Shown here: piece by piece, positions 7,766 to 29,836 of the stretch
Numbering within the stretch: position 1 is the stretch's first letter
How the letters are laid out: each line of letters opens with the position of its first letter
Sequence record: EU863409
Reading direction: 5' to 3' (one strand)
DNA length: 64,000 nucleotides
Source of the DNA: Escherichia phage JS10
Position numbers and translations under genes: made by a program
The notes under the pieces: generated by a model
Told to the model about the DNA's origin: nothing
Database searches by the model: none
The model's input: the letters and a program-made list of their open reading frames with translations, nothing else

Positions 7766-8440
7766 TTATCGATTTTTTATACTTAATGGGTCTGGGTTCT
7801 CAGGAACATCTTCCAGGTTTAAAGCATATCGTTGAGCATATTTCAGCATCAAGATATCCTTAGCACAGTCATGGATAGAGTCATGAGCAACAAAGCCATT
7901 CAAGGTTCCGTTAGGCAGAGGGCACATGCTCAATCCACGCGTCAGTGAATAGGCTTCAATGGCCGTACGGATATCGCGTTGGTTCCAGAATTTAACCGGT
8001 TCCAACTTAGTGGTATCGATTTCGTTCTCAGGAACACCTTCAGAACGATAAGCATCACGAATAAGGTCCACTAAGATTGGAAAGTCAAAGGACATTCCGC
8101 GGCACCACATCTGCGATTTCCATTGGTCCACTTCGTTTTTACGGCAGTATTCCAGGAAATTACCAATGCCGATAGAAGTACTCACATCAATTTCGGACGG
8201 AGCCAGGTTTTTACGTGCTTCAGGTCCTTGTTCTTTCCACCACTGCAATGTGCTTTTAGAGAACAGACGTTTATCGCGTTGAGAAGCCAAATCGAATTTA
8301 ATACGAAGGCCGCGTTGAGTAAGCTCTTCAAACGATTCTACTACTTCTGGATTGGGGTCATAAGCAATTACGGCGAGGTCAATAACCGCTGCATTTTGGG
8401 TAGTGGCAAAGGTTTCGAAGTCAATAATTATATCTTTCAT
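7766..8440 (-). CDS. dexA: exonuclease A (DnaQ-like 3'-5' exonuclease)
   Basis: 224 aa; N-terminal IIIDFET exonuclease motif; T4 synteny next to dda. Confidence 0.75.
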   Translation of the reverse strand: MKDIIIDFETFATTQNAAVIDLAVIAYDPNPEVVESFEELTQRGLRIKFDLASQRDKRLFSKSTLQWWKEQGPEARKNLAPSEIDVSTSIGIGNFLEYCRKNEVDQWKSQMWCRGMSFDFPILVDLIRDAYRSEGVPENEIDTTKLEPVKFWNQRDIRTAIEAYSLTRGLSMCPLPNGTLNGFVAHDSIHDCAKDILMLKYAQRYALNLEDVPENPDPLSIKNR

Positions 8441-8727
8441 TTAACGTACCTCATAAGGTCTCGGATTTGGCCGACCGTATAGTCTTCAATATAAACCGAA
8501 GAGATATTGTCGTCCATCAGTTTTTGCACTGCAATAAAATCACTTTCAATCTCTTTAAGTGAATGCAAGACCTTATGAGCCTTGCCACGGATATTTGTAT
8601 CGTCTGGGTTGACCTTAATAATATATTCCGTCTCGAATTTCAACTTATAAAACTGGTCTTTAGTTACTTTAATCATATTTTCCTCAAACATAATAGGCAT
8701 CAGTACGAGCACGGGTAATACTAACAT
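8437..8727 (-). CDS. hypothetical protein
   Basis: 96-aa ORF between dexA and dda. Confidence 0.45.
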   Translation of the reverse strand: MLVLPVLVLMPIMFEENMIKVTKDQFYKLKFETEYIIKVNPDDTNIRGKAHKVLHSLKEIESDFIAVQKLMDDNISSVYIEDYTVGQIRDLMRYVK

Positions 8728-10015
8728 AAGCCAGCTGTGAAGCTAAATTGGCATCTGCCATGTGCATGCACGGAGTATAGATGAAACTGTTTTGGACAGT
8801 AAGGCCTTGTGATTTATGAACAGTGCTCACCGGAAGAGCTCGAACCTTAGTGAACATTCGCTTAGCTTTCCAGAAATCAGCCCACTTAGGTTTCTTACCA
8901 GTTCCACGCATAGCCTTGTACTCAGTAGCCACCTTAGCCAAGAAATAATGGAACTTCTCAACTGAAGCCTCATCAATAACTTTCAAGTGTTCTACATAGT
9001 ACTCGTCATCCTCATCAACAGATTCAACCTGGAGGTCCCAGTAATTAATCATCTGGCGAGTGCCTACATCCTTGGCAGACAAGAACAATGAGGTGTGGTT
9101 CACATCTAAAATACGAACCATTTGTCCGTTATTAAAAATGGTTTCAGAGAATTTCTTACCGTCGTATTCAAGTTCCTTAATAAAAGGCTCTTGCATCACG
9201 AGGATTTCGCCTTTGATATAAGGCGCATCGGTTTCATAAAGCTTTTTACGAATAATGCTATTCAGTTTTTCAACTGATTTATTTGTATAAGCAAACATCC
9301 TATTCTCAAACAAGGCATCTGCATCTTTTACGATGGAAAAATAATTCATCATAAAATCTTTTAAAGCCGTTTGAGATTTAAAACCATGGACACCGTGACC
9401 TTCGAATATACAATCTCGGAACCATCCACCATTACGGATTTCAGTAGCAACCTCAATGATAGGAGCATTACTACGCATTACTTCAGTAAGGTGTAGCTGT
9501 TTAATTTTAGGATGAGTAAAGAATGGAGACAACTGAGGACTTCCATCACTTCCTGGTTCTACAGGTTGTAACTGTGCTCGGTCGCCAATCCCTAGTACAG
9601 TGCACCACGGCGGAACCGAAGCTTCGATAATCTTAAACAACTTACCGTCAATCATTGAGCCTTCGTCGACCACAAGAACATTACATTTGCTCAAATCAGG
9701 AGCTTCACGCTGTTCAAAAATATCCTGGTCTTCGTATGTAGTCGGGTTAATCTTTAAGATTCGGTGGATTGTCGATGCTTCTTGGCCTGCGAGTTTCGAC
9801 AATACCTTCTTGGCCGCGTGTGTAGGTGCGGTCAAAATAACTCCGAGTTCGCCATTCTTGACTAAGTGGTCAAGGATAAATTTAGTAAGGGTCGTTTTAC
9901 CTGTACCGGCAGGACCATTCAATGTAATCCATTCGCCCTTACGTCGTTTAATAGCTTCAATGATTTCTTTAAAGGCCGTCCGTTGCCCAATATTCAAGTC
10001 TTCAAATGTAATCAT
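8684..10015 (-). CDS. dda: Dda DNA helicase (SF1B)
   Basis: 443 aa; Walker A GPAGTGKTT; N-terminus similar to T4 Dda. Confidence 0.85.
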   Translation of the reverse strand: MITFEDLNIGQRTAFKEIIEAIKRRKGEWITLNGPAGTGKTTLTKFILDHLVKNGELGVILTAPTHAAKKVLSKLAGQEASTIHRILKINPTTYEDQDIFEQREAPDLSKCNVLVVDEGSMIDGKLFKIIEASVPPWCTVLGIGDRAQLQPVEPGSDGSPQLSPFFTHPKIKQLHLTEVMRSNAPIIEVATEIRNGGWFRDCIFEGHGVHGFKSQTALKDFMMNYFSIVKDADALFENRMFAYTNKSVEKLNSIIRKKLYETDAPYIKGEILVMQEPFIKELEYDGKKFSETIFNNGQMVRILDVNHTSLFLSAKDVGTRQMINYWDLQVESVDEDDEYYVEHLKVIDEASVEKFHYFLAKVATEYKAMRGTGKKPKWADFWKAKRMFTKVRALPVSTVHKSQGLTVQNSFIYTPCMHMADANLASQLAYVSITRARTDAYYV

Positions 10016-20186: not shown

Positions 20187-20500
20187 CTCTTAGATTTAAT
20201 TTTATCCAGTTCTTCTTGTATTTGCATTGTAACACATTTTTCTACATGAAGCGCTAGCTCTTCTTTTCGGTCTTCGGAAGGCGTTCCGAAATCAACCGAC
20301 ACTTTTCCATCTTTCTCAATAACAATATTCATCACATAAACGATGTGAGCAGTGCCATCGGGTAATGTAAGCATAATTTCCTGCTTAACAGAACCCATTG
20401 ACTTACGGATTATATCTAACGATTTCTCATAATAACGAGGGTCACTAGGACCCTCTTCAGTATCTTTAACAAAATTATCTAAATCAGATAAATCAGTCAT
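20171..20500 (-). CDS. 40: gp40-like protein (by position)
   Basis: 109-aa ORF between uvsX and 41. Confidence 0.5.
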   Translation of the reverse strand: MTDLSDLDNFVKDTEEGPSDPRYYEKSLDIIRKSMGSVKQEIMLTLPDGTAHIVYVMNIVIEKDGKVSVDFGTPSEDRKEELALHVEKCVTMQIQEELDKIKSKRWWKW

Positions 20501-21665
20501 CTAAATCCATCTCTTCTAAATCGTTTTCGATATCAGCTGCGCTTTGAGTGTCGCCACTCAATTTAACTGCAACGTTCTTAGAGACACGAGAGTTAATAAG
20601 GTCGTTCACCGCATCATCGACTTCTTTAATAGAATTAATTGCACCGAGCTTATACTTATTCTCGATTGCTTCACGGAATGGAGCATGTTTAAACAGCGGT
20701 CCCCAGAACTCGACACAATCGGTAGCTTTAGCACGCCATGATTTTTCTTCTTGAACCATTTCACCCGTGGTTTCGTCAAGGAATGCACGATTATACCAAC
20801 CAGCTTTAGGTTTCACGACAAAGCCAATATCAGTAGCCATTTCGAGCAGACCACTAAATGGGTCGATACCACCTTCAAAGTTCACAGTAATTGGGAACGT
20901 TGATTTCTCTTTAACAGTACGAGATTTTTCGGCCTTCAGGGTGAAGTCATAACCAGTGAGCTCGGTACCATCTTTAACCTGACGTTTAGAGATAAAGAAT
21001 ACGGTAGAAGCAGAGTACAGAATACCAGTACCACCACCCATAATCTCTTTAGGATACATTCCACCAATTTCCATAGCCGTATGGTTAATTGCTACACAAG
21101 GAATATCCTTGATAGTCAGATAAGGTGTTACGATACGGAACAGAGATTTCAGAGACTTAGCACGAGTCATATCACCTACAACTTTCTCGTTCAACGCATC
21201 TTCGGTTTCTTTCTTAGAAGCAGTGTTACCGATGGAGTCGATAAAGATAATAACCTTTTCGCCACGAGTAATTTCTTCTAATTGGTTGGTCATGTCAACC
21301 TTCAGTTGTTCGACTGACTGGATTGGTGTATGAACCACACGTTCCAGGTCAACACCCATTGAACGGAAATAAGATTCTGAAGCACCGAACTCAGAGTCAT
21401 AGAACAAGCAAATTGCGTCTGGATATTTCTTCATATATGCCGCAACCATAGTTAATCCAAACAACGTTTTAAAGTGTTTAGACGGTGCAGCAAAGATTGT
21501 CAAACCTGATTGTAAGCCTGCATTCAACGCACCGCCCAATGCAATATTAAGCATAGGAATACGAGTAGGAACTTCGTCACGACCATTAAACAATTTAGAT
21601 TTGGTCAGGTCGGCAGTCATTTTAGAAGTAGAAGCTTTAATCAAACGGGATTTTAAATCAGACAT
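20493..21665 (-). CDS. uvsX: UvsX recombinase (RecA-like)
   Basis: 390 aa; RecA-fold ATPase; T4 UvsX is about 391 aa. Confidence 0.85.
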   Translation of the reverse strand: MSDLKSRLIKASTSKMTADLTKSKLFNGRDEVPTRIPMLNIALGGALNAGLQSGLTIFAAPSKHFKTLFGLTMVAAYMKKYPDAICLFYDSEFGASESYFRSMGVDLERVVHTPIQSVEQLKVDMTNQLEEITRGEKVIIFIDSIGNTASKKETEDALNEKVVGDMTRAKSLKSLFRIVTPYLTIKDIPCVAINHTAMEIGGMYPKEIMGGGTGILYSASTVFFISKRQVKDGTELTGYDFTLKAEKSRTVKEKSTFPITVNFEGGIDPFSGLLEMATDIGFVVKPKAGWYNRAFLDETTGEMVQEEKSWRAKATDCVEFWGPLFKHAPFREAIENKYKLGAINSIKEVDDAVNDLINSRVSKNVAVKLSGDTQSAADIENDLEEMDLDD

Positions 21666-21699
21666 TATATTTTTCCATAGGCATCATTATATTTTTCTC

Positions 21700-21745
21700 A
21701 CGTTTTAAGATAGGGTAATTATATCACTTCACAGTTACAGCATTA
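21700..21745 (-). promoter_or_regulatory. possible middle (MotA-type) promoter of uvsX
   Basis: minus strand AATGCTGTAA box 12 nt upstream of a perfect TATAAT. Confidence 0.3.
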
Positions 21746-21867
21746 CTTAATTCCTCGGTTGATAGCCTTATCGACTATCTTCCGAACTTCTCGTTTCTCG
21801 AGCCACCCTAATAATAGCAAGGCTCCGAAAGAGAATAATAACAAACCTATAAAAAGCAATAGAGGAC

Positions 21868-22761
21868 CTAGCATACTACGTCCTCATAACGTGGCATTTC
21901 GTATTCAGAATGAATATTGGCACCGAAATAAATGAATTCAGCCAGACCAGGATGGAATACTAAACCTGGGTTCTCATGATAAATGATATGTGGTCTTGAT
22001 TTCAGAATTTGATAATATTCAACCTTACTCGGTTTGAATTTAATAATCTCTACATCAGGACGATAGTCTTCGCGCTTAAATGAATCATTCGGGTCGGTGA
22101 TATAAAGACGAGCACCTTCAGCGGCAGCTTGGTCTACAACTCTTTCGAATTGATAGCACTTATCCGAAATACGGAATGGATGGAAAATACCATCAATTTT
22201 AATAGGCGCTAGACCTTCAGAGTAACGCTCAATTACTGCAGGATTAATTACCTTTTGGTCTACAAAAATCTTATCAGAGGATGCACCTCGTGACACCAGG
22301 ACGTCTTTCTGGCATTGATTCAGGACTGTAGTATAAAGTGAACGTTCAACCGAAGCCACATCAATATCAATGAACTCGTCGATATAATAACGAGGAACTT
22401 CAGGGTCCATTGTGATATTAAAGTTGAATTGTACAGTGTGAGCACCATCATAACCGGTGATATCGGTTACCAGTCCTGAGCAATCGTAGTATTCGATTAG
22501 TGAATCGACTACAAACTCATTTTCAGACCAGAAATGTTTACGGGTTTCATAAGCATTTTCTTTATACCAAAGTGGTACGAAATTCAGTTCTGGGAATAAT
22601 TCAATGCATTCTTTGATATCGCTCGAATTTCTAGGATAAGCCAGATAATCACCTGGACGAGCACGATTTAAATGGAGTTGAAAATTACCGTCCTTAAGGA
22701 CGGCATATTCACCTGTTTCGTAACTACGCATACTGAAAATAGGAACGATAAACAAACTCAT
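21868..22761 (-). CDS. hypothetical protein at the T4 beta-glucosyltransferase locus; candidate DNA-sugar transferase
   Basis: 297 aa; sits between uvsX and gene 42 where T4 has bgt, but does not resemble T4 bgt. Confidence 0.5.
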   Translation of the reverse strand: MSLFIVPIFSMRSYETGEYAVLKDGNFQLHLNRARPGDYLAYPRNSSDIKECIELFPELNFVPLWYKENAYETRKHFWSENEFVVDSLIEYYDCSGLVTDITGYDGAHTVQFNFNITMDPEVPRYYIDEFIDIDVASVERSLYTTVLNQCQKDVLVSRGASSDKIFVDQKVINPAVIERYSEGLAPIKIDGIFHPFRISDKCYQFERVVDQAAAEGARLYITDPNDSFKREDYRPDVEIIKFKPSKVEYYQILKSRPHIIYHENPGLVFHPGLAEFIYFGANIHSEYEMPRYEDVVC

Positions 22762-23456
22762 TTCAGGAAACCTCGGACGTAGTCAAAATCACGTTCAAAC
22801 ACGTGTGCACTTACCATGGTGTGAGAATATGTACCTAAACCGACACCACACTGTTCAGCAATAAATGCCATCAGTTTACCCTGCAGATAGAAATCCAGCT
22901 GCATAACAACAGCACAGTTTTGTGAACGCATATGGGTGTGTGCATACAAACGTCCGTCACGAATATAATACGTTACCGAATCGGTGCACGGATATTCTAA
23001 GGATTCGTCAGAATCAAGGAGGGCTTGGTCTTGTTCTTGGAGAATCTGGAACACAACTCTTCGCGAGTTAGCCTTTTCTTTAAGCTCTTTAAGTAGGGCT
23101 GGGAGTTGGGCCACAATTCGAGGTCCATAGAAAGTGTTGAAGTTTGCAGGCAATACGTCACTTTTCGGCTTATCAATGAACTTAGCAACATTAGGATATT
23201 CCTTAAATGCTTCGGCGGCGTCAGTACCACCAGAAATCATAAATTTCCAAAAGGATTCGGCATATTCATAACTAATACGATTGATACGTGGGTCGGTGAA
23301 TTTATAGGTGCTTGCATCCAGTACTTCTACAGAAGCAGAACCAATTTCATAACAACGTCCGATACGAGAATCAACTGCAAACTGTGGAGCTTCCAGGATT
23401 TCTTCGTTCATTTGTTTAAATGCATTTTCAAAACTAACAGCGGTAATGTGTTTCAT
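22758..23456 (-). CDS. 42: dCMP hydroxymethylase (thymidylate-synthase fold)
   Basis: 232 aa; NSRRVVFQ...THMRSQNCAVVMQLDFY...HVFERDF align with T4 gp42 blocks. Confidence 0.8.
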   Translation of the reverse strand: MKHITAVSFENAFKQMNEEILEAPQFAVDSRIGRCYEIGSASVEVLDASTYKFTDPRINRISYEYAESFWKFMISGGTDAAEAFKEYPNVAKFIDKPKSDVLPANFNTFYGPRIVAQLPALLKELKEKANSRRVVFQILQEQDQALLDSDESLEYPCTDSVTYYIRDGRLYAHTHMRSQNCAVVMQLDFYLQGKLMAFIAEQCGVGLGTYSHTMVSAHVFERDFDYVRGFLK

Positions 23457-23989
23457 TTATTCACCTTATTTTCAATATATTCGTTCAGACGTTTTAATTC
23501 TACCATATCAACATTAAGCAAATTATTATGGCCGTCATGATTTAAGATTTTAAACACGTTTTCAAAACATGTTTCGTATTGCCGGATAGTTAGGTTGAAC
23601 TCATCTTTGGTTAATTTAATAAGGTCGTCTTCGAAGTCTTCGTCTAATGGATTACGAGTTAAAATAACCTCGATAACGTTAAATTCGGATTTAAACCCTT
23701 TCCAATCTTCCAGTTCTACATAAGGGTCCATTTCACCACGAAGGAATCCTGAGTAAACAATATTACTTGGATAACCACGGTCAAGGATATAAACGAAATT
23801 AGGGTCTAAAAACTTATACAGAGTTTCAACTAAAGCCTTATCGTTATCGGTTCCTAATGAAATACACTTGCCATTAATCTTTTTAGGAAAATCAATAAGG
23901 CGGTATTTCTTATTGGATAACAGATTTTTAATTAAAGTGGACTTCCCGGAATTATCCGGGCCGTCTATAACAATGATTTTTGGATTCAT
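23453..23989 (-). CDS. P-loop kinase, thymidylate-kinase-like
   Basis: 178 aa; Walker A IVIDGPDNSGKST typical of Tmk/dNK-type kinases. Confidence 0.55.
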   Translation of the reverse strand: MNPKIIVIDGPDNSGKSTLIKNLLSNKKYRLIDFPKKINGKCISLGTDNDKALVETLYKFLDPNFVYILDRGYPSNIVYSGFLRGEMDPYVELEDWKGFKSEFNVIEVILTRNPLDEDFEDDLIKLTKDEFNLTIRQYETCFENVFKILNHDGHNNLLNVDMVELKRLNEYIENKVNK

Positions 23990-24384
23990 GGATGATAGGC
24001 CTTATAACTATCAAGAGTTCCTTCACGAACCATTTCTTTAAAGTGGTCAGGACGGATTGCTCGGTCATCGATGATAAAAGTATAACTCGGCTTGTGTGTA
24101 AGCAAATTGTGATATTTCAATCCAATTTTTTCAAGGTTCTTAACCAATGCAGGAACTACTTCAACCAAGATTCGACCTGGGCCACATGAAGTCATGCCAC
24201 GGGCGGTGAACAATGTAATCTCGTACCCTTCATCATAAAGCTTATTAATCATGGACACCATTTCGGTGTCCGGTTTAAAGTTCTCATAATCACGGTCATG
24301 GTTCCAAATCGTGATTGTGTTATCGATATCAAAACATAAGTGTGGCTTATTTTCTACTCGATGCGACATTAAATTTTCTTCCAT
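23986..24384 (-). CDS. HAD-superfamily phosphatase
   Basis: 132 aa; motif I CFDIDNTIT (DxDxT). Confidence 0.6.
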   Translation of the reverse strand: MEENLMSHRVENKPHLCFDIDNTITIWNHDRDYENFKPDTEMVSMINKLYDEGYEITLFTARGMTSCGPGRILVEVVPALVKNLEKIGLKYHNLLTHKPSYTFIIDDRAIRPDHFKEMVREGTLDSYKAYHP

Positions 24385-26042
24385 TGTTTGTGGAGTTCAG
24401 TAGAACCTGTAGGTTTATATTTTACACCAGTTTCCTGGTCAAGCAAAACCCACTTATCAGGACAACGAGTAATAATTTGGGCCGTAATAGGGTCACGAAC
24501 TTCATCGACAAATTCACCTGTAATAAGCTTACGCTTACGAGGATGCCGCTTCAGCAGCACACTCAGTTGGTACAAACCGTTATAATAAGCACCCAGAGCT
24601 TTCAGAGGGTTATTCTTAAAGTAACCTGCCAGAGCCATCCAAATAACAGCAATCCAGAGCTTGTGCTTAAATGTGCACATAGGGATATCGTCTAAAGGCA
24701 TAACCTTTTCGATATCAACGAATACACGAGTTCCGTTACGAGTTAATCCACCCCATAGAGGGTCTGAGTTAAATTTGTCATAGCCATCGATAGAATAAAG
24801 CACCTTAGCTTCATCATAAATCGCAGGGCCTTTAGAACTATTACCGAAATAACCGCGTGGGTCGATGATTTTAATATCACCTTCGTCCGACAGCATAATA
24901 TTACTGTAGTGCGGGTCACCATGAATAAGTTGGTACGGTTCTTTATGTTCAGACAGAATTTCTAGTGCATGGCGGAGAAGTTTTTCAGGGTCGCCTACTT
25001 TGAAATCGTTAACATGGGTAATGCCTTGTGGAGCAAAGCCTTCAATCAATCCGGCAATAGAAGCATTACGAATAAGGACCTTGTCCAATACTTCTTTCTT
25101 AACATCAGAATACCATTGCTCATCGGACGGGTTATCGATAGTTCCACCGAATGAACGTAATGCACTAATGACCTTATAAACCATGAGGACTTTAGTTTCT
25201 TTGGACATAAACCGGTAGGCATCTGCCATGGTCCGACCAAAGATACGTTCCATTTTAATGAATTCGCCTGGAGAAAAGTCTACAATGCTAGGAACGAATT
25301 CAGAATCAATAGAATTATACCAATTGATTTCTTTAGATTGAATTTCTTTACCTAAATCGTTAGTTGGTACTTTAATAGCCAGATTCTCGGTGAATTCTAA
25401 TTTATTAAATTCACGGTTAATTTCAGATTCTTCATGGGCCTTAGCCAGTTTCAATTTGTCACCGACATCAACTACAAAGTCCAGTTTACGTTCAGTCAAA
25501 TAGACCATTGAATCCAGGTTATCAGCAAGGTCTTCACCGTAATTAGAACGGTCGAAACCTGTCCAATTAGCCACCTGATACAAACCAACTACACCGCCAC
25601 CGGTACCAATTTCACGTAAGTACGGTTCTTCAAATGTAAAACGACAATCGGTTCCATAAGTATAGCAGTAGTCGTTACCCCACTCAACTTTATGACCTTC
25701 AGGAATGATGTCACACCAGTTAAACAAGACATTATGACCAATGATATCTTCGGCAATGCAATCGATAGCATGAGCTGAACCATTAGCAACATCAACGTTA
25801 CGAATAGTGAATTTAGGCTTATCACCAGTAATCATGTTAATGGATTTAATATAGCCTTTAACGAGGTCGTTAAATTTGCTGTGAATAACCAGAATAATTT
25901 CATCTGATTGGTTACTATACAAATCATACAAATGCTTTAATACTGTATGTTGTTTGTAGTTAACCAATACCTTCGGGATTTCGTTAGTAATTGGGTACAA
26001 ACGTGAGCCAAGACCTGCGCCTAAAATAACAACCTTTTTCAT
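24369..26042 (-). CDS. bifunctional sugar-1-phosphate nucleotidyltransferase / APH-fold sugar kinase
   Basis: N-terminus VVILGAGLGSRL (NTP-transferase G-x-G-x-R); C-terminus HGDPHYSNIML...IIDPRGYFG (APH/choline-kinase catalytic loop); start trimmed to ATG 26040-26042 with GAGGAA RBS. Confidence 0.65.
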   Translation of the reverse strand: MKKVVILGAGLGSRLYPITNEIPKVLVNYKQHTVLKHLYDLYSNQSDEIILVIHSKFNDLVKGYIKSINMITGDKPKFTIRNVDVANGSAHAIDCIAEDIIGHNVLFNWCDIIPEGHKVEWGNDYCYTYGTDCRFTFEEPYLREIGTGGGVVGLYQVANWTGFDRSNYGEDLADNLDSMVYLTERKLDFVVDVGDKLKLAKAHEESEINREFNKLEFTENLAIKVPTNDLGKEIQSKEINWYNSIDSEFVPSIVDFSPGEFIKMERIFGRTMADAYRFMSKETKVLMVYKVISALRSFGGTIDNPSDEQWYSDVKKEVLDKVLIRNASIAGLIEGFAPQGITHVNDFKVGDPEKLLRHALEILSEHKEPYQLIHGDPHYSNIMLSDEGDIKIIDPRGYFGNSSKGPAIYDEAKVLYSIDGYDKFNSDPLWGGLTRNGTRVFVDIEKVMPLDDIPMCTFKHKLWIAVIWMALAGYFKNNPLKALGAYYNGLYQLSVLLKRHPRKRKLITGEFVDEVRDPITAQIITRCPDKWVLLDQETGVKYKPTGSTELHKQWKKI

Positions 26043-26102
26043 TATCTGTTCCTCAAGTGAATGTAGGTACATTATACACTATTTTTAATAAATTTCTATT
26101 GC

Positions 26103-26603
26103 TTAAATCTTATCTTTACCGTATTCCATGCACTGTTCTACTGCAGCAGGCACTTTGGACTTAAGCTTGTTGATTTGTTTCTTATAATCACGAGCCTTAT
26201 CGAAGCTCTCGGTTTCAAGCATTTCGTAATAACGGGCCTCGTGGACGGAAATCTGTAGATTGATATGGTTTACACACATAGAATACAGTTTCTGCTTTTT
26301 GTACAAATCATCTTGGCGCTTCATTTCTGCCTGGTGTTTGGCTAGTACCGCTTCACGCTTAGACTCTTGTTCACGTTGGAATTCGATTTCCCTTTGAGCA
26401 TATTTTGCACAGTTATTACCGCATTGATTATTAGCTCGGGTATACACAAGTCCAGAACCAGCACGGAATTTCATTTCGCCGTCGAATTGTTTCTGTTCAG
26501 CTGCGATACGAGCTTTACCAACTTCATCAGCAGAAACTGCATCACCGTATTGGACTGCGCAACCTGATAGGAGCATACTCATTGCGATAATTAACTTTTT
26601 CAT
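26103..26603 (-). CDS. putative lipoprotein
   Basis: 166 aa; signal peptide with lipobox LSGC. Confidence 0.55.
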   Translation of the reverse strand: MKKLIIAMSMLLSGCAVQYGDAVSADEVGKARIAAEQKQFDGEMKFRAGSGLVYTRANNQCGNNCAKYAQREIEFQREQESKREAVLAKHQAEMKRQDDLYKKQKLYSMCVNHINLQISVHEARYYEMLETESFDKARDYKKQINKLKSKVPAAVEQCMEYGKDKI

Positions 26604-26610
26604 AATATCC

Positions 26611-26748
26611 TCAATTAAAACAGTTATACTTAATTTGTGCTATAAGAATAATCCATCCCATGATTAATGTTGGAATCATTGGAGGAATTGCCACTGCCCA
26701 ATAAACAGTAAAGGCGGCCATTATAAGAAATAAAATAATTATCTTCAT
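26611..26748 (-). CDS. small membrane protein (45 aa)
   Basis: MKIIILFLIMAAFTVYWAVAIPP...; ATGA start/stop overlap with next gene; below track cutoff. Confidence 0.4.
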   Translation of the reverse strand: MKIIILFLIMAAFTVYWAVAIPPMIPTLIMGWIILIAQIKYNCFN

Positions 26749-26981
26749 TGTTTAACGATAATGATTTGTGCGTTTGATTTACGTTCAGCGACGATAGCCC
26801 AGATTAAAGCCACTACCCAACCAATCATCGTCCACCCTAACAGGAGATTAAGGAAGAAGATTCCGACATTGCTACGAGTGCCTCGCAGAAGAGCCAGAAT
26901 CCATGGTAAAAAGTAACCAATGAACATAATAACCAGAGAACCGAATCCTAAAACACCAGCACTAACGATTAAAGCTTCCAT
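26745..26981 (-). CDS. membrane protein, Imm-like by position
   Basis: 78 aa, two hydrophobic helices; T4 imm lies between 42 and 43. Confidence 0.45.
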   Translation of the reverse strand: MEALIVSAGVLGFGSLVIMFIGYFLPWILALLRGTRSNVGIFFLNLLLGWTMIGWVVALIWAIVAERKSNAQIIIVKQ

Positions 26982-26998
26982 TATAATTTCCTCATGTA

Positions 26999-27041
26999 GT
27001 TGATAGGAAGAATAATACCACGTTCCATGTGGTATGTAAAC
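26999..27041 (-). promoter_or_regulatory. early-promoter cassette
   Basis: gttgataggaagaataata...gtaaac. Confidence 0.5.
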
Positions 27042-27043
27042 AC

Positions 27044-29755
27044 TTAAAAGTCGAACATGTCAAATAATGTTGCTTTTTTCTCGTAGTCGATTTTAGCAGA
27101 CTCAGTAAAACCAGTCAGTGGTTTGATAAAGGTCTTTTGGAACAGTACGTTGTAGTCCATCCAACGGAGGACTTGGTCACGAATCTGAATCGGAAGTTCA
27201 ATACCTGACGGCCATGCCATACAAGCTTCACCGAACGGGTTGCCTTCTTTAAGTGGCAGTACATATACCTTTTCACCATCAACGATACGAGGCATAGTCA
27301 AATCACCAGCAGAAGCACGCATGTAAGCTAAGCAACCTTTGATGTGGTACGGGCATTTAGAACCAGGGAAACCGCCTTCATTATATTTCTCAATGTTGTT
27401 AGCACTGGATACTGCAGCAATGCTTACATAGTCTAGTTCGTTAAATTCCTTATTAAACTGTTTGAAATATTCTTGCAAAGAAGCCTCGCCTTCTTGAAGC
27501 ATACGACGGATACATTCTTTCAGTGCTTTCTGAACCGCTTTAGGCGTACTTGATTTCTGGGTTTCGAGACCCATGATTTTCAAGTGTGGTTCGGCATAAC
27601 GAGTACCTTCCATGTCCCAAACGTTCAGTGCGTAACGTTTCTTGCCTGTCCAGAATCCACCAAGACCTTTAGAACCAAGTGGAGGACCAGCGATAGCTTC
27701 TCGGTCCATGAACATCAAGTGCTGTTTATTGTTCATGTATTCACACATCTCACGGAAGCCTGCATCAATAGCTGGTTCCATACGTTCACGTGCAAATTTA
27801 TCTAAGAAGTCAACCCAGTGGTTAGTATCACGGAATTTGTCTTCGCCTACTTTATTGATGATTGCATCAGCCTTAACATAAATGGAGTCGGTATCACCAT
27901 AGAGCACGAACTTCTGGTTTTCAGTCTTGCACACGCCATTCAGATATTCGTTAACCTTACGTTCAATCCATTGGAGGGCCATTTGACCAAACAATGTGAT
28001 TGCAGTTGCGTTCCTGAGGTCATAGTAACGGAACCATACGTTACCAAGTGCACCATAAAGGGAGTTGATAAGCAACTTACGGTTAATCTGAGCAGTCATA
28101 CCTGCGACTTCAGTGCGTTCGGCTTTGAACAACATTTCTTTTAAAGAAGATGCTGACAATTTTTTAATCTGAGCTTTGATTTCGTCAGAGAAGTCGAAAC
28201 GATAATCGATATCCAGTGGACTATCAACAGACAGATTAGGATTTTCTAATGCTTCTTTAATTAACTCACCATTACGTTGAGCTGCAAGCATATAACCTTT
28301 ATGTTCTTTACGCTGTAAGAACACCTTCGTGATTTCTGTAGGAATCACACCATCACGGTCTTTATAGTACATCATGCCGTTAGGAGAGCAACTGTAGGTG
28401 TCGCTAGGACGCGGAGCAGTTCCGGCAATATATTCATGTATCGGTGCGTTGGCGAATGTCCCTGCGATGGTCTCTGGGCTTATATTCACTTGACGAATGA
28501 TACTCGGGTACAGAGATGTAAGGTCGAAACTCATTACATATTTGTACGCGTTAGGAATAGGTTCCTTAACGAAAGCACCCGGATAAGGTTGAACCGCATG
28601 CGATTTGGCCTGAGGAATAACTTTACCCTGTTCTTTAAGGCTATTAAAGATAATAGCGTCCCAAGTCTTAATTGGACTGAACACCGACTGAATCTGCATC
28701 TTGGCATAGTAACCCATGTCCAGACTAAGAAGAATGAACTGGCGTTTCATATCAATCTGCACAACACGATATACGTCGATAATGTTATAGGAAATATATC
28801 GTTGGTGGTTCGTCTCACGTAACTTGGAGATAGGACCATCATATTTCAACTTACCTACTTTCAATTCATATTCAGAAACATAATCCAGAGAATAAGAAGG
28901 CTGGTTGGTAAAGCTGAATTTTTTATAAAGGTCGATATAATCCAGAACAGAAATGCCGAACAGTGTAATAATTTCACGAACACCGTACATATTCTCGATA
29001 ACTTTAACACGAGTCTTACGATGTGGGCTTAATCGCTTAGCAGTGTTCTCACCAAACAGATTTTTCAGACGGTTATAAACGTATGGCACGTCAAATGATT
29101 CAACGTTCCATCCAGTCAAAATCACAGGAGTTTTCTGTTGCCAGAAATTCAGATACTCAAGCATCATTTCTTCTTCAGAATTAAACGGAAGATAAACGAT
29201 TTTGTCAATGATTTCTTGTGGAACTTCGTCACCACCTTCGTCTTGGAGTTTCTCAGCGATTTTAATCGACCACTCTTCGACCGTACCATAAGGTGAAACT
29301 AAAAGGTCAAATACATAGAATTTATCATCAATCGAGTCGTAGTGAGTAATGGCATCGATAGGATGTTTAGCCTGGGCAGGTTCAGGGAATCCATCAGGAG
29401 ATGTTACCTCGATGTCGAAGTTAGCAATACGAATCTTGGAAGAATCATACTTGATTTCTTTACGATAGGTATCAGACAAATAGGCTAATTTATAGTCGTC
29501 CATACCAAGGGCTTCGAGACCCATATCGTCCATGCGCTTCATCCACTGAGAAGCATCGCGCATTGAATCGAATTCTTTCTTAACACAGCCCTTACCGTAG
29601 ATGTCAATATATTTTACGGCTTGCTCTGGGTTGGCATGCATAAACATTGTAGGCTTGTAAGGAACTTCACGACTACGTTCTTTACCATTTTTATCGATGT
29701 AACGTTCGAGAATATTATCACCGATTTGTTCGACTGTCAAATAGAATTCTTGCAT
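27044..29755 (-). CDS. 43: DNA polymerase (family B)
   Basis: starts MQEFYLTVEQIGDN as T4 gp43; YGDTDS motif; track start 29815 trimmed to ATG 29753-29755. Confidence 0.9.
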   Translation of the reverse strand: MQEFYLTVEQIGDNILERYIDKNGKERSREVPYKPTMFMHANPEQAVKYIDIYGKGCVKKEFDSMRDASQWMKRMDDMGLEALGMDDYKLAYLSDTYRKEIKYDSSKIRIANFDIEVTSPDGFPEPAQAKHPIDAITHYDSIDDKFYVFDLLVSPYGTVEEWSIKIAEKLQDEGGDEVPQEIIDKIVYLPFNSEEEMMLEYLNFWQQKTPVILTGWNVESFDVPYVYNRLKNLFGENTAKRLSPHRKTRVKVIENMYGVREIITLFGISVLDYIDLYKKFSFTNQPSYSLDYVSEYELKVGKLKYDGPISKLRETNHQRYISYNIIDVYRVVQIDMKRQFILLSLDMGYYAKMQIQSVFSPIKTWDAIIFNSLKEQGKVIPQAKSHAVQPYPGAFVKEPIPNAYKYVMSFDLTSLYPSIIRQVNISPETIAGTFANAPIHEYIAGTAPRPSDTYSCSPNGMMYYKDRDGVIPTEITKVFLQRKEHKGYMLAAQRNGELIKEALENPNLSVDSPLDIDYRFDFSDEIKAQIKKLSASSLKEMLFKAERTEVAGMTAQINRKLLINSLYGALGNVWFRYYDLRNATAITLFGQMALQWIERKVNEYLNGVCKTENQKFVLYGDTDSIYVKADAIINKVGEDKFRDTNHWVDFLDKFARERMEPAIDAGFREMCEYMNNKQHLMFMDREAIAGPPLGSKGLGGFWTGKKRYALNVWDMEGTRYAEPHLKIMGLETQKSSTPKAVQKALKECIRRMLQEGEASLQEYFKQFNKEFNELDYVSIAAVSSANNIEKYNEGGFPGSKCPYHIKGCLAYMRASAGDLTMPRIVDGEKVYVLPLKEGNPFGEACMAWPSGIELPIQIRDQVLRWMDYNVLFQKTFIKPLTGFTESAKIDYEKKATLFDMFDF

Positions 29756-29812
29756 TTCATTTCCTTTATAGACGAGTGATTGTCTTTTGTTTGTTGATGA
29801 ATAATTATACTC

Positions 29813-29836
29813 CAAAAAGGGACCGAAGTCCCTTTG
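29813..29836 (-). terminator. UUCG-loop hairpin upstream of gene 43 leader
   Basis: aaaaagggaccgaagtccctttgc. Confidence 0.5.

What the first reader, a model, noticed from the sequence alone, without database searches (positions are those of the whole stretch)
21868..22761. Orphan 297-aa protein in the beta-glucosyltransferase slot
Sequence does not resemble T4 bgt as I recall it, yet it is the only candidate transferase next to gene 42. It could be a novel glycosyltransferase (arabinosyltransferase?) fold.
Basis: inference. Interest (0 to 1): 0.65.

Follow-up and report, generated by a model that had tools for sequence, protein, structure and literature searches.

The report
First-sugar transferase for 5-hydroxycytosine phage DNA
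This gene is the Dhakavirus copy of a phage enzyme family that recent papers already predict attaches the first arabinose to 5-hydroxycytosine (not hydroxymethylcytosine) in T4-like phage DNA, so it is real and interesting biology but not a new discovery.

Summary
The ORF is real: 21868..22761, minus strand, 297 aa. It lies between uvsX and the gene-42 homolog, where T4 has beta-gt, and shows no sequence similarity to T4 beta-gt.

It is not an orphan. It belongs to PHROG 3891, found in about 350 phage genomes, and is the ortholog of RB69 gp46:47 (65-70% identity) and Thanatos TH1_063 (52%). Lee et al. (NAR 2026) predict RB69 gp46:47 and DLP3 gp79 to be "arabinosyltransferase 1".

The neighbouring "gene 42" carries the D169N signature of 5-hydroxy-dCMP synthase, so the acceptor is 5-hydroxycytosine, not hmC.

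The gene ends a five-gene overlapping operon: UDP-arabinose kinase/pyrophosphorylase, HAD phosphatase, P-loop kinase, 5hodCMP synthase, GT.

In 47 of 53 related loci a ThyA homolog sits directly upstream (46 with D169N).

The near-identical complete genome MN04 has no other detectable DNA GT. I therefore predict mono-arabinosyl-5hoC DNA for this phage.

Still open in the papers I could read: direct enzymology, and whether the acceptor is DNA or a nucleotide.

The parts
21868..22761 (-). Target: 297-aa GT-B-fold glycosyltransferase, predicted base-proximal (first) arabinosyltransferase acting on 5-hydroxycytosine. Ortholog of RB69 gp46:47, DLP3 gp79 and Thanatos TH1_063.
22758..23456 (-). ThyA-family 5-hydroxy-dCMP synthase (not a T4-type dCMP hydroxymethylase). 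It makes the acceptor base precursor. Its stop overlaps the target's start (ATGA).
   Evidence: PDB 9iqu/9iqc E 2e-125 versus T4 gp42 1b5e E 1.5e-4. L143E, C146, D169N and N177D. 79.7% identity to RB69 gp48, which was shown to make 5hodCMP (PMC13326640).
23453..23989 (-). P-loop, thymidylate-kinase-like nucleotide kinase (RB69 gp45 homolog). Substrate unknown. It is the tightest gene partner of the GT and is found fused to it in other phages.
   Evidence: PHROG 761 E 1.5e-39. 38% identity to RB69 gp45. Adjacent to the GT in 46 of 53 loci. GT-kinase fusion proteins.
23986..24384 (-). HAD-family sugar phosphatase (RB69 gp51 / HY126 AfhF homolog). Predicted to convert Araf-1,5-bisphosphate to Araf-1-phosphate.
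   Evidence: 61.6% identity to RB69 gp51. NCBIfam EcbF-BcbF capsule phosphatase E 1.3e-14. Role taken from PMC13326640, which cites He et al..
24369..26072 (-). Bifunctional sugar-1-phosphate nucleotidyltransferase (N-terminal) plus APH-type kinase (C-terminal). RB69 gp52:53 / HY126 AfhE homolog; predicted to make UDP-arabinofuranose.
   Evidence: Pfam NTP_transferase E 3e-8 and APH E 1e-5. 41-44% identity to RB69 gp52 and gp53. Role taken.
21743..21874 (-). 43-aa hydrophobic ORF overlapping the target's stop codon by 7 nt. Function unknown; possibly the last cistron of the operon.
   Evidence: ORF. 95-98% conserved in Dhakavirus loci and unannotated in MN04.

Best explanation
The ORF encodes the first-step glycosyltransferase of the arabinosyl-5-hydroxycytosine DNA hypermodification pathway of a JS98-like Dhakavirus.

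Proposed steps:
1. The upstream ThyA homolog hydroxylates dCMP to 5-hydroxy-dCMP. Kinases then take it to the triphosphate and it replaces dC in phage DNA.
2. The bifunctional kinase/nucleotidyltransferase and the HAD phosphatase of the same overlapping operon convert arabinose-5-phosphate to UDP-arabinofuranose. The arabinose-5-phosphate presumably comes from the host enzymes KdsD/GutQ, because this phage has no isomerase of its own.
3. The 297-aa protein, a compact two-domain GT-B enzyme, binds the UDP-sugar in its C-terminal domain and the 5-hydroxycytosine acceptor in its N-terminal domain. It forms the ether-linked, base-proximal arabinoside.

It is the only GT this phage type has, so the DNA should carry a single arabinose per cytosine.

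What is shown here: gene, orthology, fold, neighbour identities, gene linkage and fusions, and the absence of other GTs.
What comes from the literature: the chemistry of the base, the 5hodCMP synthase activity and the UDP-Araf route.
What is inferred: catalysis by this protein, the donor, the retaining stereochemistry and DNA as the acceptor.
For: (1) Orthology. The target is collinear with RB69 ORF047c plus ORF046c and is 52% identical to Thanatos TH1_063. These are the proteins Lee et al. name arabinosyltransferase 1 or the single ara-GT.

(3) Linkage to the acceptor-making enzyme. The window's ThyA homolog has D169N and is about 80% identical to 9IQU/9IQC. In 47 of 53 loci with a family member a ThyA homolog lies directly upstream, and 46 of these have D169N. 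A distant member, RL38J1_215 (hhalign 99.3%), sits beside the D169N enzyme RL38J1_216 in a phage whose first sugar is galactose.

(4) Operon. Five genes have 4-16-nt overlaps.

(5) Fusions. The GT domain is fused to the P-loop kinase domain in at least 8 clusters and to a HAD phosphatase in 7 clusters.

(6) Sugar count tracks GT count. Thanatos and LC53 are mono-glycosylated and have only this family. RB69 and Bas46 are di-arabinosylated and add one gp3-type GT. Acinetobacter phages are tri-arabinosylated and add two.

(7) No other GT. MN04, 97% identical to the window, has no gp3-type GT and no beta-gt homolog. No GT domain was found in the other large window ORFs.
Against: No paper I could read shows glycosyl transfer by any member of this family.

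Lee et al. saw no arabinosylation of 5hoC-DNA by single purified DLP3 GTs, including gp79, with UDP-Araf or UDP-Arap.

Brandt et al. saw no xylose transfer by TH1_063. They did see UDP-xylose formation from UTP plus xylose-1-phosphate.

No sequence-level link to any GT family exists. There is no Pfam or NCBIfam hit and no PDB sequence hit. hhalign probability is below 1% against both the gp3-type GT and T4 beta-GT. The canonical GT4 EX7E motif is not present as such.

The family is acidic (median pI 5.2; the target has net charge -17), whereas T4 beta-GT has pI 9.05. This is weak evidence, because the DNA-acting gp3 type has pI 6.3.
Confidence: 0.8

Rival explanations
1. Same enzyme and same donor, but the acceptor is a free nucleotide (5-hydroxy-dCMP or its di-/triphosphate) rather than DNA. 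The GT would glycosylate the nucleotide, the adjacent thymidylate-kinase-like P-loop kinase would phosphorylate the bulky product, and the phage DNA polymerase would incorporate arabinosyl-5hodCTP. That would be pre-replicative glycosylation.
For: [quoted passage not shown]

The GT and the P-loop kinase are adjacent in 46 of 53 loci and are fused into one polypeptide in at least 8 independent clusters.

The usual gene order ThyA-GT-kinase (RB69, LC53, Thanatos, RL38J1, L006, L007) matches the hypothetical reaction order.

The T4-gp1-type dNMP kinase already phosphorylates 5hodCMP in RB69, which leaves the second kinase without an assigned job.

The family is acidic.

A family-B polymerase is reported to tolerate C5-glycosylated dNTPs.
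Against: Every characterised phage DNA glycosylation is post-replicative (the T4 paradigm; established knowledge).

The later arabinoses are added on DNA (DLP3 gp76 plus gp77 acting on RB69 DNA).

The GT is also found fused to a HAD phosphatase, which does not catalyse an adjacent step. So fusion does not prove consecutive reactions.

The charge argument is weak, because the DNA-acting gp3 type has pI 6.3 and UvsX has pI 5.4.

He et al. 2026 may already have settled this; I could not read that paper.
Confidence: 0.17
2. The protein is a UDP-pentose pyrophosphorylase (a sugar-1-phosphate uridylyltransferase) that makes the activated sugar, as reported for the Thanatos ortholog TH1_063. It would not be the transferase.
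For: Brandt et al. detected UDP-xylose by LC-MS/MS when purified TH1_063 was incubated with UTP and xylose-1-phosphate. TH1_063 is a full-length ortholog of the target (52% identity).

Against: The operon already encodes a canonical NTP_transferase domain (24369..26072). Its HY126 homolog AfhE is reported to have UDP-arabinose pyrophosphorylase activity.

The control shown for TH1_063 was 'no enzyme'. Co-purified E. coli uridylyltransferase is therefore not excluded; this last point is my inference.

A phage with mono-glycosylated DNA would then have no transferase at all.
Confidence: 0.04
3. It is a GT-B-like protein that does not transfer sugar to the base. It could be a nucleotide-sugar 2-epimerase-like enzyme that remodels the UDP-sugar, or a non-catalytic partner or scaffold for another enzyme.
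For: The top Foldseek hits by E-value are non-hydrolysing UDP-GlcNAc 2-epimerases (7vza, E 6e-6). Single GTs were inactive in vitro, and DLP3 gp76 and gp77 work only together. A divergent Muldoonvirus homolog has lost the invariant motifs and sits beside canonical beta-gt genes, so inactive relatives do exist.
Confidence: 0.04

Closest known systems
RB69 gp46:47 / Acinetobacter phage DLP3 gp79 ('alpha-arabinosyltransferase 1', Lee et al., NAR 2026, PMC13326640); PHROG 3891
   Different: The gene order in the Dhakavirus is rearranged: the kinase lies upstream of ThyA instead of downstream of the GT. This phage also lacks the arabinose-5-phosphate isomerase, the U32-like gene and the gp3-type second GT. 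The function of the family is predicted, not demonstrated.
Shewanella phage Thanatos TH1_063 (Brandt et al., AEM 2025, PMC12838424)
   Same: Full-length ortholog (52% identity, E 3e-99) with the same ThyA-GT-kinase arrangement. It is the sole GT-fold protein of a mono-pentosylated phage.
   Different: It was reported as a UDP-xylose pyrophosphorylase in vitro. That activity does not fit the fold or the operon content.
Rhizobium phage RL38J1 gp215 ('galactosyltransferase 1' in Lee et al.)
   Same: Distant member of the same family (hhalign 99.3%, E 8e-21, 257 columns) with the signature motifs kept. It has the same kinase-GT-ThyA(D169N) triad.
   Different: A different phage family (Pootjesviridae) and a different first sugar (galactose). 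So the family tracks the 5-hydroxycytosine acceptor rather than the sugar.
T4 beta-glucosyltransferase (gene b-gt; CAZy GT63)
   Same: Same genomic slot between uvsX and the ThyA-family gene. Same general fold class (GT-B) and the same kind of job: the first sugar on a C5-oxygen of a modified cytosine.
gp3-type arabinosyltransferase (RB69 ORF003c, HY126 GT PDB 9IQZ/9IR0, DLP3 gp76/gp77)
   Different: Unrelated in sequence (hhalign 0.3%). 366 aa. It adds the second and third arabinose on DNA. It is restricted to Mosigvirus and Acinetobacter phages (212 records) and is absent from this phage.
Retaining GT4 glycosyltransferases (MshA 3c4q, sucrose-phosphate synthase 6kih, BshA 6n1x, PimA 2gej)
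   Different: Only about 10% identity, and no Pfam Glycos_transf_1 or Glyco_trans_4 match. The target is about 60-100 residues shorter. There is no canonical EX7E motif; an invariant H270-P-G-x-x-E275 stands in that region.

Membership tests
5-hydroxycytosine base-proximal glycosyltransferase family (RB69 gp46:47 / DLP3 gp79 / TH1_063 / RL38J1_215; PHROG 3891) | Full-length sequence homology to the named members | tested here: met
   PHROG 3891 E 3e-159. RB69 ORF047c plus ORF046c at 70% and 65% identity. TH1_063 at 52% identity, E 3e-99. RL38J1_215 against the family profile: probability 99.3%.
5-hydroxycytosine base-proximal glycosyltransferase family (RB69 gp46:47 / DLP3 gp79 / TH1_063 / RL38J1_215; PHROG 3891) | Encoded next to a ThyA homolog with the D169N 5hodCMP-synthase signature | tested here: met
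   The window neighbour has L143E, C146, D169N and N177D. 46 of 53 related loci show the same arrangement.
5-hydroxycytosine base-proximal glycosyltransferase family (RB69 gp46:47 / DLP3 gp79 / TH1_063 / RL38J1_215; PHROG 3891) | Family-invariant residues present (M11-R12-S13, D24-G25-N26, R74, F193-x-P-F-R197-x-S-D200, T222-D-P-N225, K246, H270) | tested here: met
   All are present in the window protein, which is the first row of alignment A1; 25 columns are invariant. They are lost in the hmC-associated Muldoonvirus branch.
5-hydroxycytosine base-proximal glycosyltransferase family (RB69 gp46:47 / DLP3 gp79 / TH1_063 / RL38J1_215; PHROG 3891) | Transfers the first sugar onto the 5-OH of 5-hydroxycytosine | not testable with these tools
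   This needs enzymology or genetics. The published attempts I could read were negative or off-target.
GT-B fold glycosyltransferase superfamily | Two Rossmann-like beta/alpha/beta domains with an inter-domain cleft | tested here: met
GT-B fold glycosyltransferase superfamily | C-terminal-domain donor contacts: Arg/Lys after the first C-domain strand for the diphosphate, and an acidic residue on the following helix for the ribose | tested here: inconclusive
   Invariant R197 and near-invariant K201 follow strand 192-194, and H270 and E275 precede helix 271-278. By eye these resemble gp3 'R207-Y-D-T-K' and 'E281-A-I-S-K-G', the residues Thomas et al. highlight. No statistically supported alignment exists, and I had no residue-level structural superposition.
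CAZy GT4 / Pfam Glycos_transf_1 (PF00534), Glyco_trans_4 | Match to the family HMM at the curated threshold | tested here: not met
   No Pfam family at E <= 0.1 and none in NCBIfam. The profile search of PDB sequences found nothing.
CAZy GT4 / Pfam Glycos_transf_1 (PF00534), Glyco_trans_4 | GT4 enzymes are the nearest structural neighbours | tested here: met
T4 beta-glucosyltransferase family (GT63) | Sequence or close structural similarity to T4 beta-GT | tested here: not met
T4 beta-glucosyltransferase family (GT63) | Genomic position between uvsX and the ThyA-family gene | tested here: met
   T4 order uvsX-segA-b-gt-42 compared with window order uvsX-orf43-GT-ThyA homolog.
gp3-type DNA arabinosyltransferase (RB69 ORF003c / PDB 9IQZ) | Sequence homology to RB69 gp3 / HY126 GT | tested here: not met
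Sugar-1-phosphate nucleotidyltransferase (UDP-sugar pyrophosphorylase) | NTP_transferase (GT-A-like) fold or domain | tested here: not met
   No NTP_transferase hit for the target. The domain is in the neighbouring gene 24369..26072. No nucleotidyltransferase appears among the fold hits.

The most novel reading that the evidence does not exclude
The family may glycosylate the free nucleotide (5-hydroxy-dCMP, -dCDP or -dCTP) rather than DNA. The co-encoded, sometimes fused, thymidylate-kinase-like kinase would then push the arabinosylated nucleotide towards the triphosphate for direct incorporation by the phage polymerase. That would be the first pre-replicative glycosylation of a DNA precursor. 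Lee et al. explicitly leave this open. Supporting points here are the GT-kinase fusions, the negative 5hoC-DNA assays and the acidic protein. He et al. 2026, which I could not read, may already have decided the question.
Probability: 0.17. Interest if true: 0.75.

Novelty: already known. Interest (0 to 1): 0.3.

Why it matters
Arabinosyl-5-hydroxycytosine protects T4-like phage DNA from restriction enzymes, DNA glycosylases and DNA-targeting CRISPR systems. That matters for phage therapy and for phage engineering.

This family is the common first step wherever 5-hydroxycytosine is glycosylated, from coliphages to Rhizobium phages and jumbo-size contigs. It is therefore a good genomic marker, together with the D169N ThyA homolog, for predicting this class of hypermodified DNA.

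The Dhakavirus version is the most minimal pathway seen here: five genes, one GT and no isomerase. That makes it a convenient system for the enzymology that is still missing, namely the donor, the stereochemistry and whether the acceptor is DNA or a nucleotide.

For the scan itself, the finding is a correct rediscovery of a recently published prediction, not a new system.

Tried and rejected
- Pfam, NCBIfam and a PDB sequence-profile search on the target found nothing.
- hhalign of the family profile against the gp3-type GT and against T4 beta-GT found no signal. Residue-level mapping of donor-binding residues therefore stays at by-eye level.
- The promoter and terminator scan of 21500..27100 gave chance-level counts (18 found against 18.9 expected). 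I made no claim from it.
- I could not read Mahler et al. 2025 (Cell Host Microbe) or He et al. 2026 (Nat Chem Biol); neither is held. A free-text search for 'AfhE' returned only noise. The transposon preprint gave the sugar counts for LC53 and Bas46 but no data on this gene.
- I considered net charge as a discriminator between a DNA and a nucleotide acceptor. I rejected it as decisive because the DNA-acting gp3 type (pI 6.3) and UvsX (pI 5.4) are not basic either.
- I considered that a second GT, an arabinose-5-phosphate isomerase or a U32 gene might lie elsewhere. None was found in the window, in the whole MN04 genome or among the other large window ORFs. A very divergent GT cannot be excluded by tblastn alone.
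- The 'novel fold' idea is rejected.

Full report
OBSERVATION. The ORF is there exactly as described: 21868..22761, minus strand, ATG start, 297 aa. Its start overlaps the stop of the upstream gene (ATGA), and a GAGG lies 9 nt upstream. Downstream is uvsX (20493..21665; T4_UVSX_C E 1.4e-36). Upstream is a thymidylate-synthase-family gene (22758..23456). T4 has uvsX-segA-b-gt-42-imm-43, so the ORF does occupy the beta-gt slot. It has no similarity to T4 beta-gt (BLASTP best E 0.65; hhalign probability 0.15%). The window is 97% identical over about 61 kb to Escherichia phage MN04, a Dhakavirus of the JS98 species.

NOT AN ORPHAN. The protein matches PHROG 3891 ('unknown function') at E 3e-159. 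It has full-length homologs in 351 phage records, almost all Straboviridae, of Escherichia, Acinetobacter, Klebsiella, Shigella, Serratia, Enterobacter, Proteus, Yersinia and others. There are 117 clusters in the 5.8-billion-protein set. A profile search of 1.84 billion representatives finds only 235 relatives at E <= 0.001, so this is a small family seen here only in phage-like contexts. The protein is collinear with RB69 ORF047c plus ORF046c (70% and 65% identity in two reading frames). This confirms the statement of Lee et al. that RB69 'gp46:47' is a single gene split by a sequencing error. It is 52% identical over its full length to Thanatos TH1_063. In several GenBank records the gene is mislabelled 'RNA polymerase binding protein'.

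THE NEIGHBOURS DEFINE THE PATHWAY. The 'gene 42' is not a T4-type dCMP hydroxymethylase. It matches PDB 9IQU/9IQC/9IR2 at E 2e-125, against E 1.5e-4 for T4 gp42. It is 79.7% identical to RB69 gp48. It carries L143E, C146, D169N and N177D in E. coli ThyA numbering, whereas T4 gp42 keeps D169. Lee et al. showed that RB69 gp48 and DLP3 gp80 make 5-hydroxy-dCMP with O2 and a flavin. They also showed that D169N is diagnostic, and that RB69 and DLP3 DNA carries arabinose ether-linked to 5-hydroxycytosine, not hmC.

Upstream of that gene lie three more pathway genes. The first is a thymidylate-kinase-like P-loop protein (23453..23989; 38% identical to RB69 gp45). The second is a HAD phosphatase (23986..24384; 62% identical to gp51). 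The third is a 567-aa NTP-transferase plus APH-kinase protein (24369..26072; 41-44% identical to gp52:53). According to Lee et al., citing He et al., the last two correspond to HY126 AfhF and AfhE, which turn arabinose-5-phosphate into UDP-arabinofuranose. The five genes overlap by 16, 4, 4 and 4 nt, the layout of a translationally coupled operon.

GENE LINKAGE. I collected 53 loci with family members, from IMG/VR and from contigs encoding distant homologs. In 47 of them a ThyA homolog lies directly upstream on the same strand, and 46 of these have the MRSxN (D169N) motif. Two loci are cut off at the GT. A P-loop kinase is adjacent in 46. The association holds in a marine T4-like contig and in two contigs of 356 and 383 kb.

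It also holds in Rhizobium phage RL38J1. RL38J1_215 is a true distant member (hhalign 99.3%, E 8e-21, 257 columns), flanked by kinase 214 and the D169N enzyme 216. In that phage the base-proximal sugar is galactose. The family therefore tracks the 5-hydroxycytosine acceptor, not the sugar.

Long family members are natural fusions. Seven clusters have the GT followed by a C-terminal domain homologous to the window's kinase (E 4e-9 to 8e-6). One cluster has the kinase at the N-terminus. Seven clusters have a KdsC-like HAD domain at the N-terminus.

A divergent branch occurs in Muldoonvirus (hhalign 99.3%). It sits beside an hmC-type ThyA (D169, 60% identical to T4 gp42) and canonical beta-gt genes. 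It has lost nearly all the invariant motifs, so the motif set is specific to the 5hoC-linked branch.

ONE GT, ONE SUGAR. gp3-type GTs occur in 212 phage records. All are Mosigvirus-like (>= 95% identity) or Acinetobacter phages (two copies each), plus one Tegunavirus record. Reported sugar numbers follow 1 plus the number of gp3-type genes:
- Thanatos and LC53: mono, with this family only.
- RB69, NP, Bas46 and Bas47: mono/di, with one gp3-type gene.
- DLP3: tri, with two gp3-type genes.

The window has no gp3, A5P-isomerase or U32 homolog, and neither does the whole MN04 genome. Ten other large unassigned window ORFs have no GT domain. I therefore predict mono-arabinosyl-5hoC DNA for this phage, made from host-supplied arabinose-5-phosphate. 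E. coli KdsD and GutQ make that compound; this is established knowledge, and its use here is inferred.

MECHANISM AND ITS LIMITS. The best-supported reading is that the protein takes UDP-arabinofuranose in its C-terminal domain and 5-hydroxycytosine in its N-terminal domain. Invariant R197, S199, D200, T222-D-P-N225, K246 and H270, and near-invariant E275, lie in the C-terminal domain. Invariant R12, S13, D24-G-N26 and R74, and near-invariant R33 and R124, lie in the N-terminal domain. The product would be the base-proximal arabinoside. A retaining mechanism fits both the GT4-like neighbours and the alpha linkage reported by Lee et al..

None of this catalysis is shown in any paper I could read. 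DLP3 gp79 alone did nothing on 5hoC-DNA. TH1_063 transferred nothing, but it was tested only on unhydroxylated acceptors. It produced UDP-xylose from UTP and xylose-1-phosphate, with only a no-enzyme control shown. Lee et al. say explicitly that they cannot tell whether the first sugar goes on the mononucleotide or on DNA. The GT-kinase fusions, the usual ThyA-GT-kinase order, the otherwise unassigned second kinase and the acidic charge of the family keep the nucleotide-level alternative alive. The HAD fusions and the T4 precedent argue for caution.

COMPARISON AND NOVELTY. It works like T4 beta-GT: the first sugar on a C5 oxygen of a modified cytosine, in the same genomic slot. It is not a member of that family, nor of the gp3/9IQZ family, nor formally of Pfam or CAZy GT4. 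It is a member of the RB69 gp46:47 / DLP3 gp79 / TH1_063 family. That family was 'n/a' in 2021, when several phage groups were noted to 'lack any known arabinosyl transferases'. It was predicted to be arabinosyltransferase 1 in 2025-2026, with Dhakaviruses named among the syntenic clusters. The finding is thus a correct, independent rediscovery of a published prediction.

Several points I did not see in the papers I could read:
- the sequence-level inclusion of RL38J1_215 in this family;
- the kinase and HAD fusions;
- the degenerate Muldoonvirus branch;
- the ThyA-less loci with an adjacent U32 gene;
- the minimal five-gene Dhakavirus pathway.

Noticed in passing
window 22758-23456 (-): The 'gene 42' next to the target is a 5-hydroxy-dCMP synthase, not a dCMP hydroxymethylase. 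It has D169N, N177D and L143E and is about 80% identical to PDB 9IQU/9IQC. The phage's modified base is therefore 5-hydroxycytosine-derived.
   Followed up: yes
window 21743-21874 (-): A 43-aa hydrophobic ORF (MLGPLLLFIGLLLFSFGALLLLGW...) overlaps the target's stop codon by 7 nt. It is 95-98% conserved in Dhakavirus loci but unannotated in MN04. A weak, frameshifted remnant lies just downstream of T4 b-gt (L009 4350..4253, E 0.003).
   Followed up: partly
L005 9049-10125; L055 about 7963-9060; L059 about 5792 onward: The three most divergent family members (25-33% identity) have no ThyA homolog in the flanks. Instead a Peptidase_U32-family gene lies immediately downstream of the GT (L005: 40 bits against a cut-off of 22.4). 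L005 also has a MazG-like gene, a P-loop kinase and a weak GT47-like gene nearby. U32 proteins include the RNA C5-hydroxylation factors (own knowledge; cf. refs 65/66 of PMC13326640). This could therefore be an alternative route to 5-hydroxycytosine. RB69-type phages carry both ThyA-D169N and a U32 gene (gp50).
   Followed up: partly
proteins P0208, P0223, P0231, P0240, P0242, P0250, P0198, P0221; P0131, P0145, P0150, P0159, P0174, P0176, P0211: Natural fusion proteins of the GT domain exist. Eight clusters fuse it to the thymidylate-kinase-like domain (C-terminal in 7, N-terminal in 1). Seven clusters fuse it to a KdsC-like HAD phosphatase domain at the N-terminus.
   Followed up: partly
L068 5001-5927 (Cronobacter phage vB_Cdu_VP8, Muldoonvirus): A remote homolog of the family (hhalign 99.3%) sits between an hmC-type ThyA (D169) and canonical ba-gt-like and b-gt genes. 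It has lost almost all the family-invariant motifs, so it may be an inactive or repurposed relic in a glucosyl-hmC phage.
   Followed up: partly
whole window; MN04 genome (L062-L065): The Dhakavirus pathway is minimal. It has no arabinose-5-phosphate isomerase (RB69 gp55), no U32 gene (gp50) and no gp3-type second GT anywhere in the 169.5-kb MN04 genome. This implies dependence on host arabinose-5-phosphate and a single arabinose per base.
   Followed up: yes
L001 6598-7498 (RB69 NC_004928 24597-25497); LC53, C6, SHP1, SAKp28 records: The RB69 reference record splits this gene into ORF046c and ORF047c through a frameshift. Several other GenBank records label the ortholog 'RNA polymerase binding protein', which looks like propagated mis-annotation.
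   Followed up: partly
window 26103-26603 (-): A 166-aa ORF with a lipoprotein-like N-terminus (MKKLIIAMSMLLSGC...) lies between the UDP-arabinose gene and the imm-like genes (26611-26981). There is no family match above threshold. Not examined further.
   Followed up: no
window 27044-29815 (-): The mechanical ORF for DNA polymerase gp43 starts at a TTG and gives 923 aa. MN04 annotates 2712 nt (903 aa), so the true start is probably the internal ATG (MQEFYLT...).
   Followed up: no
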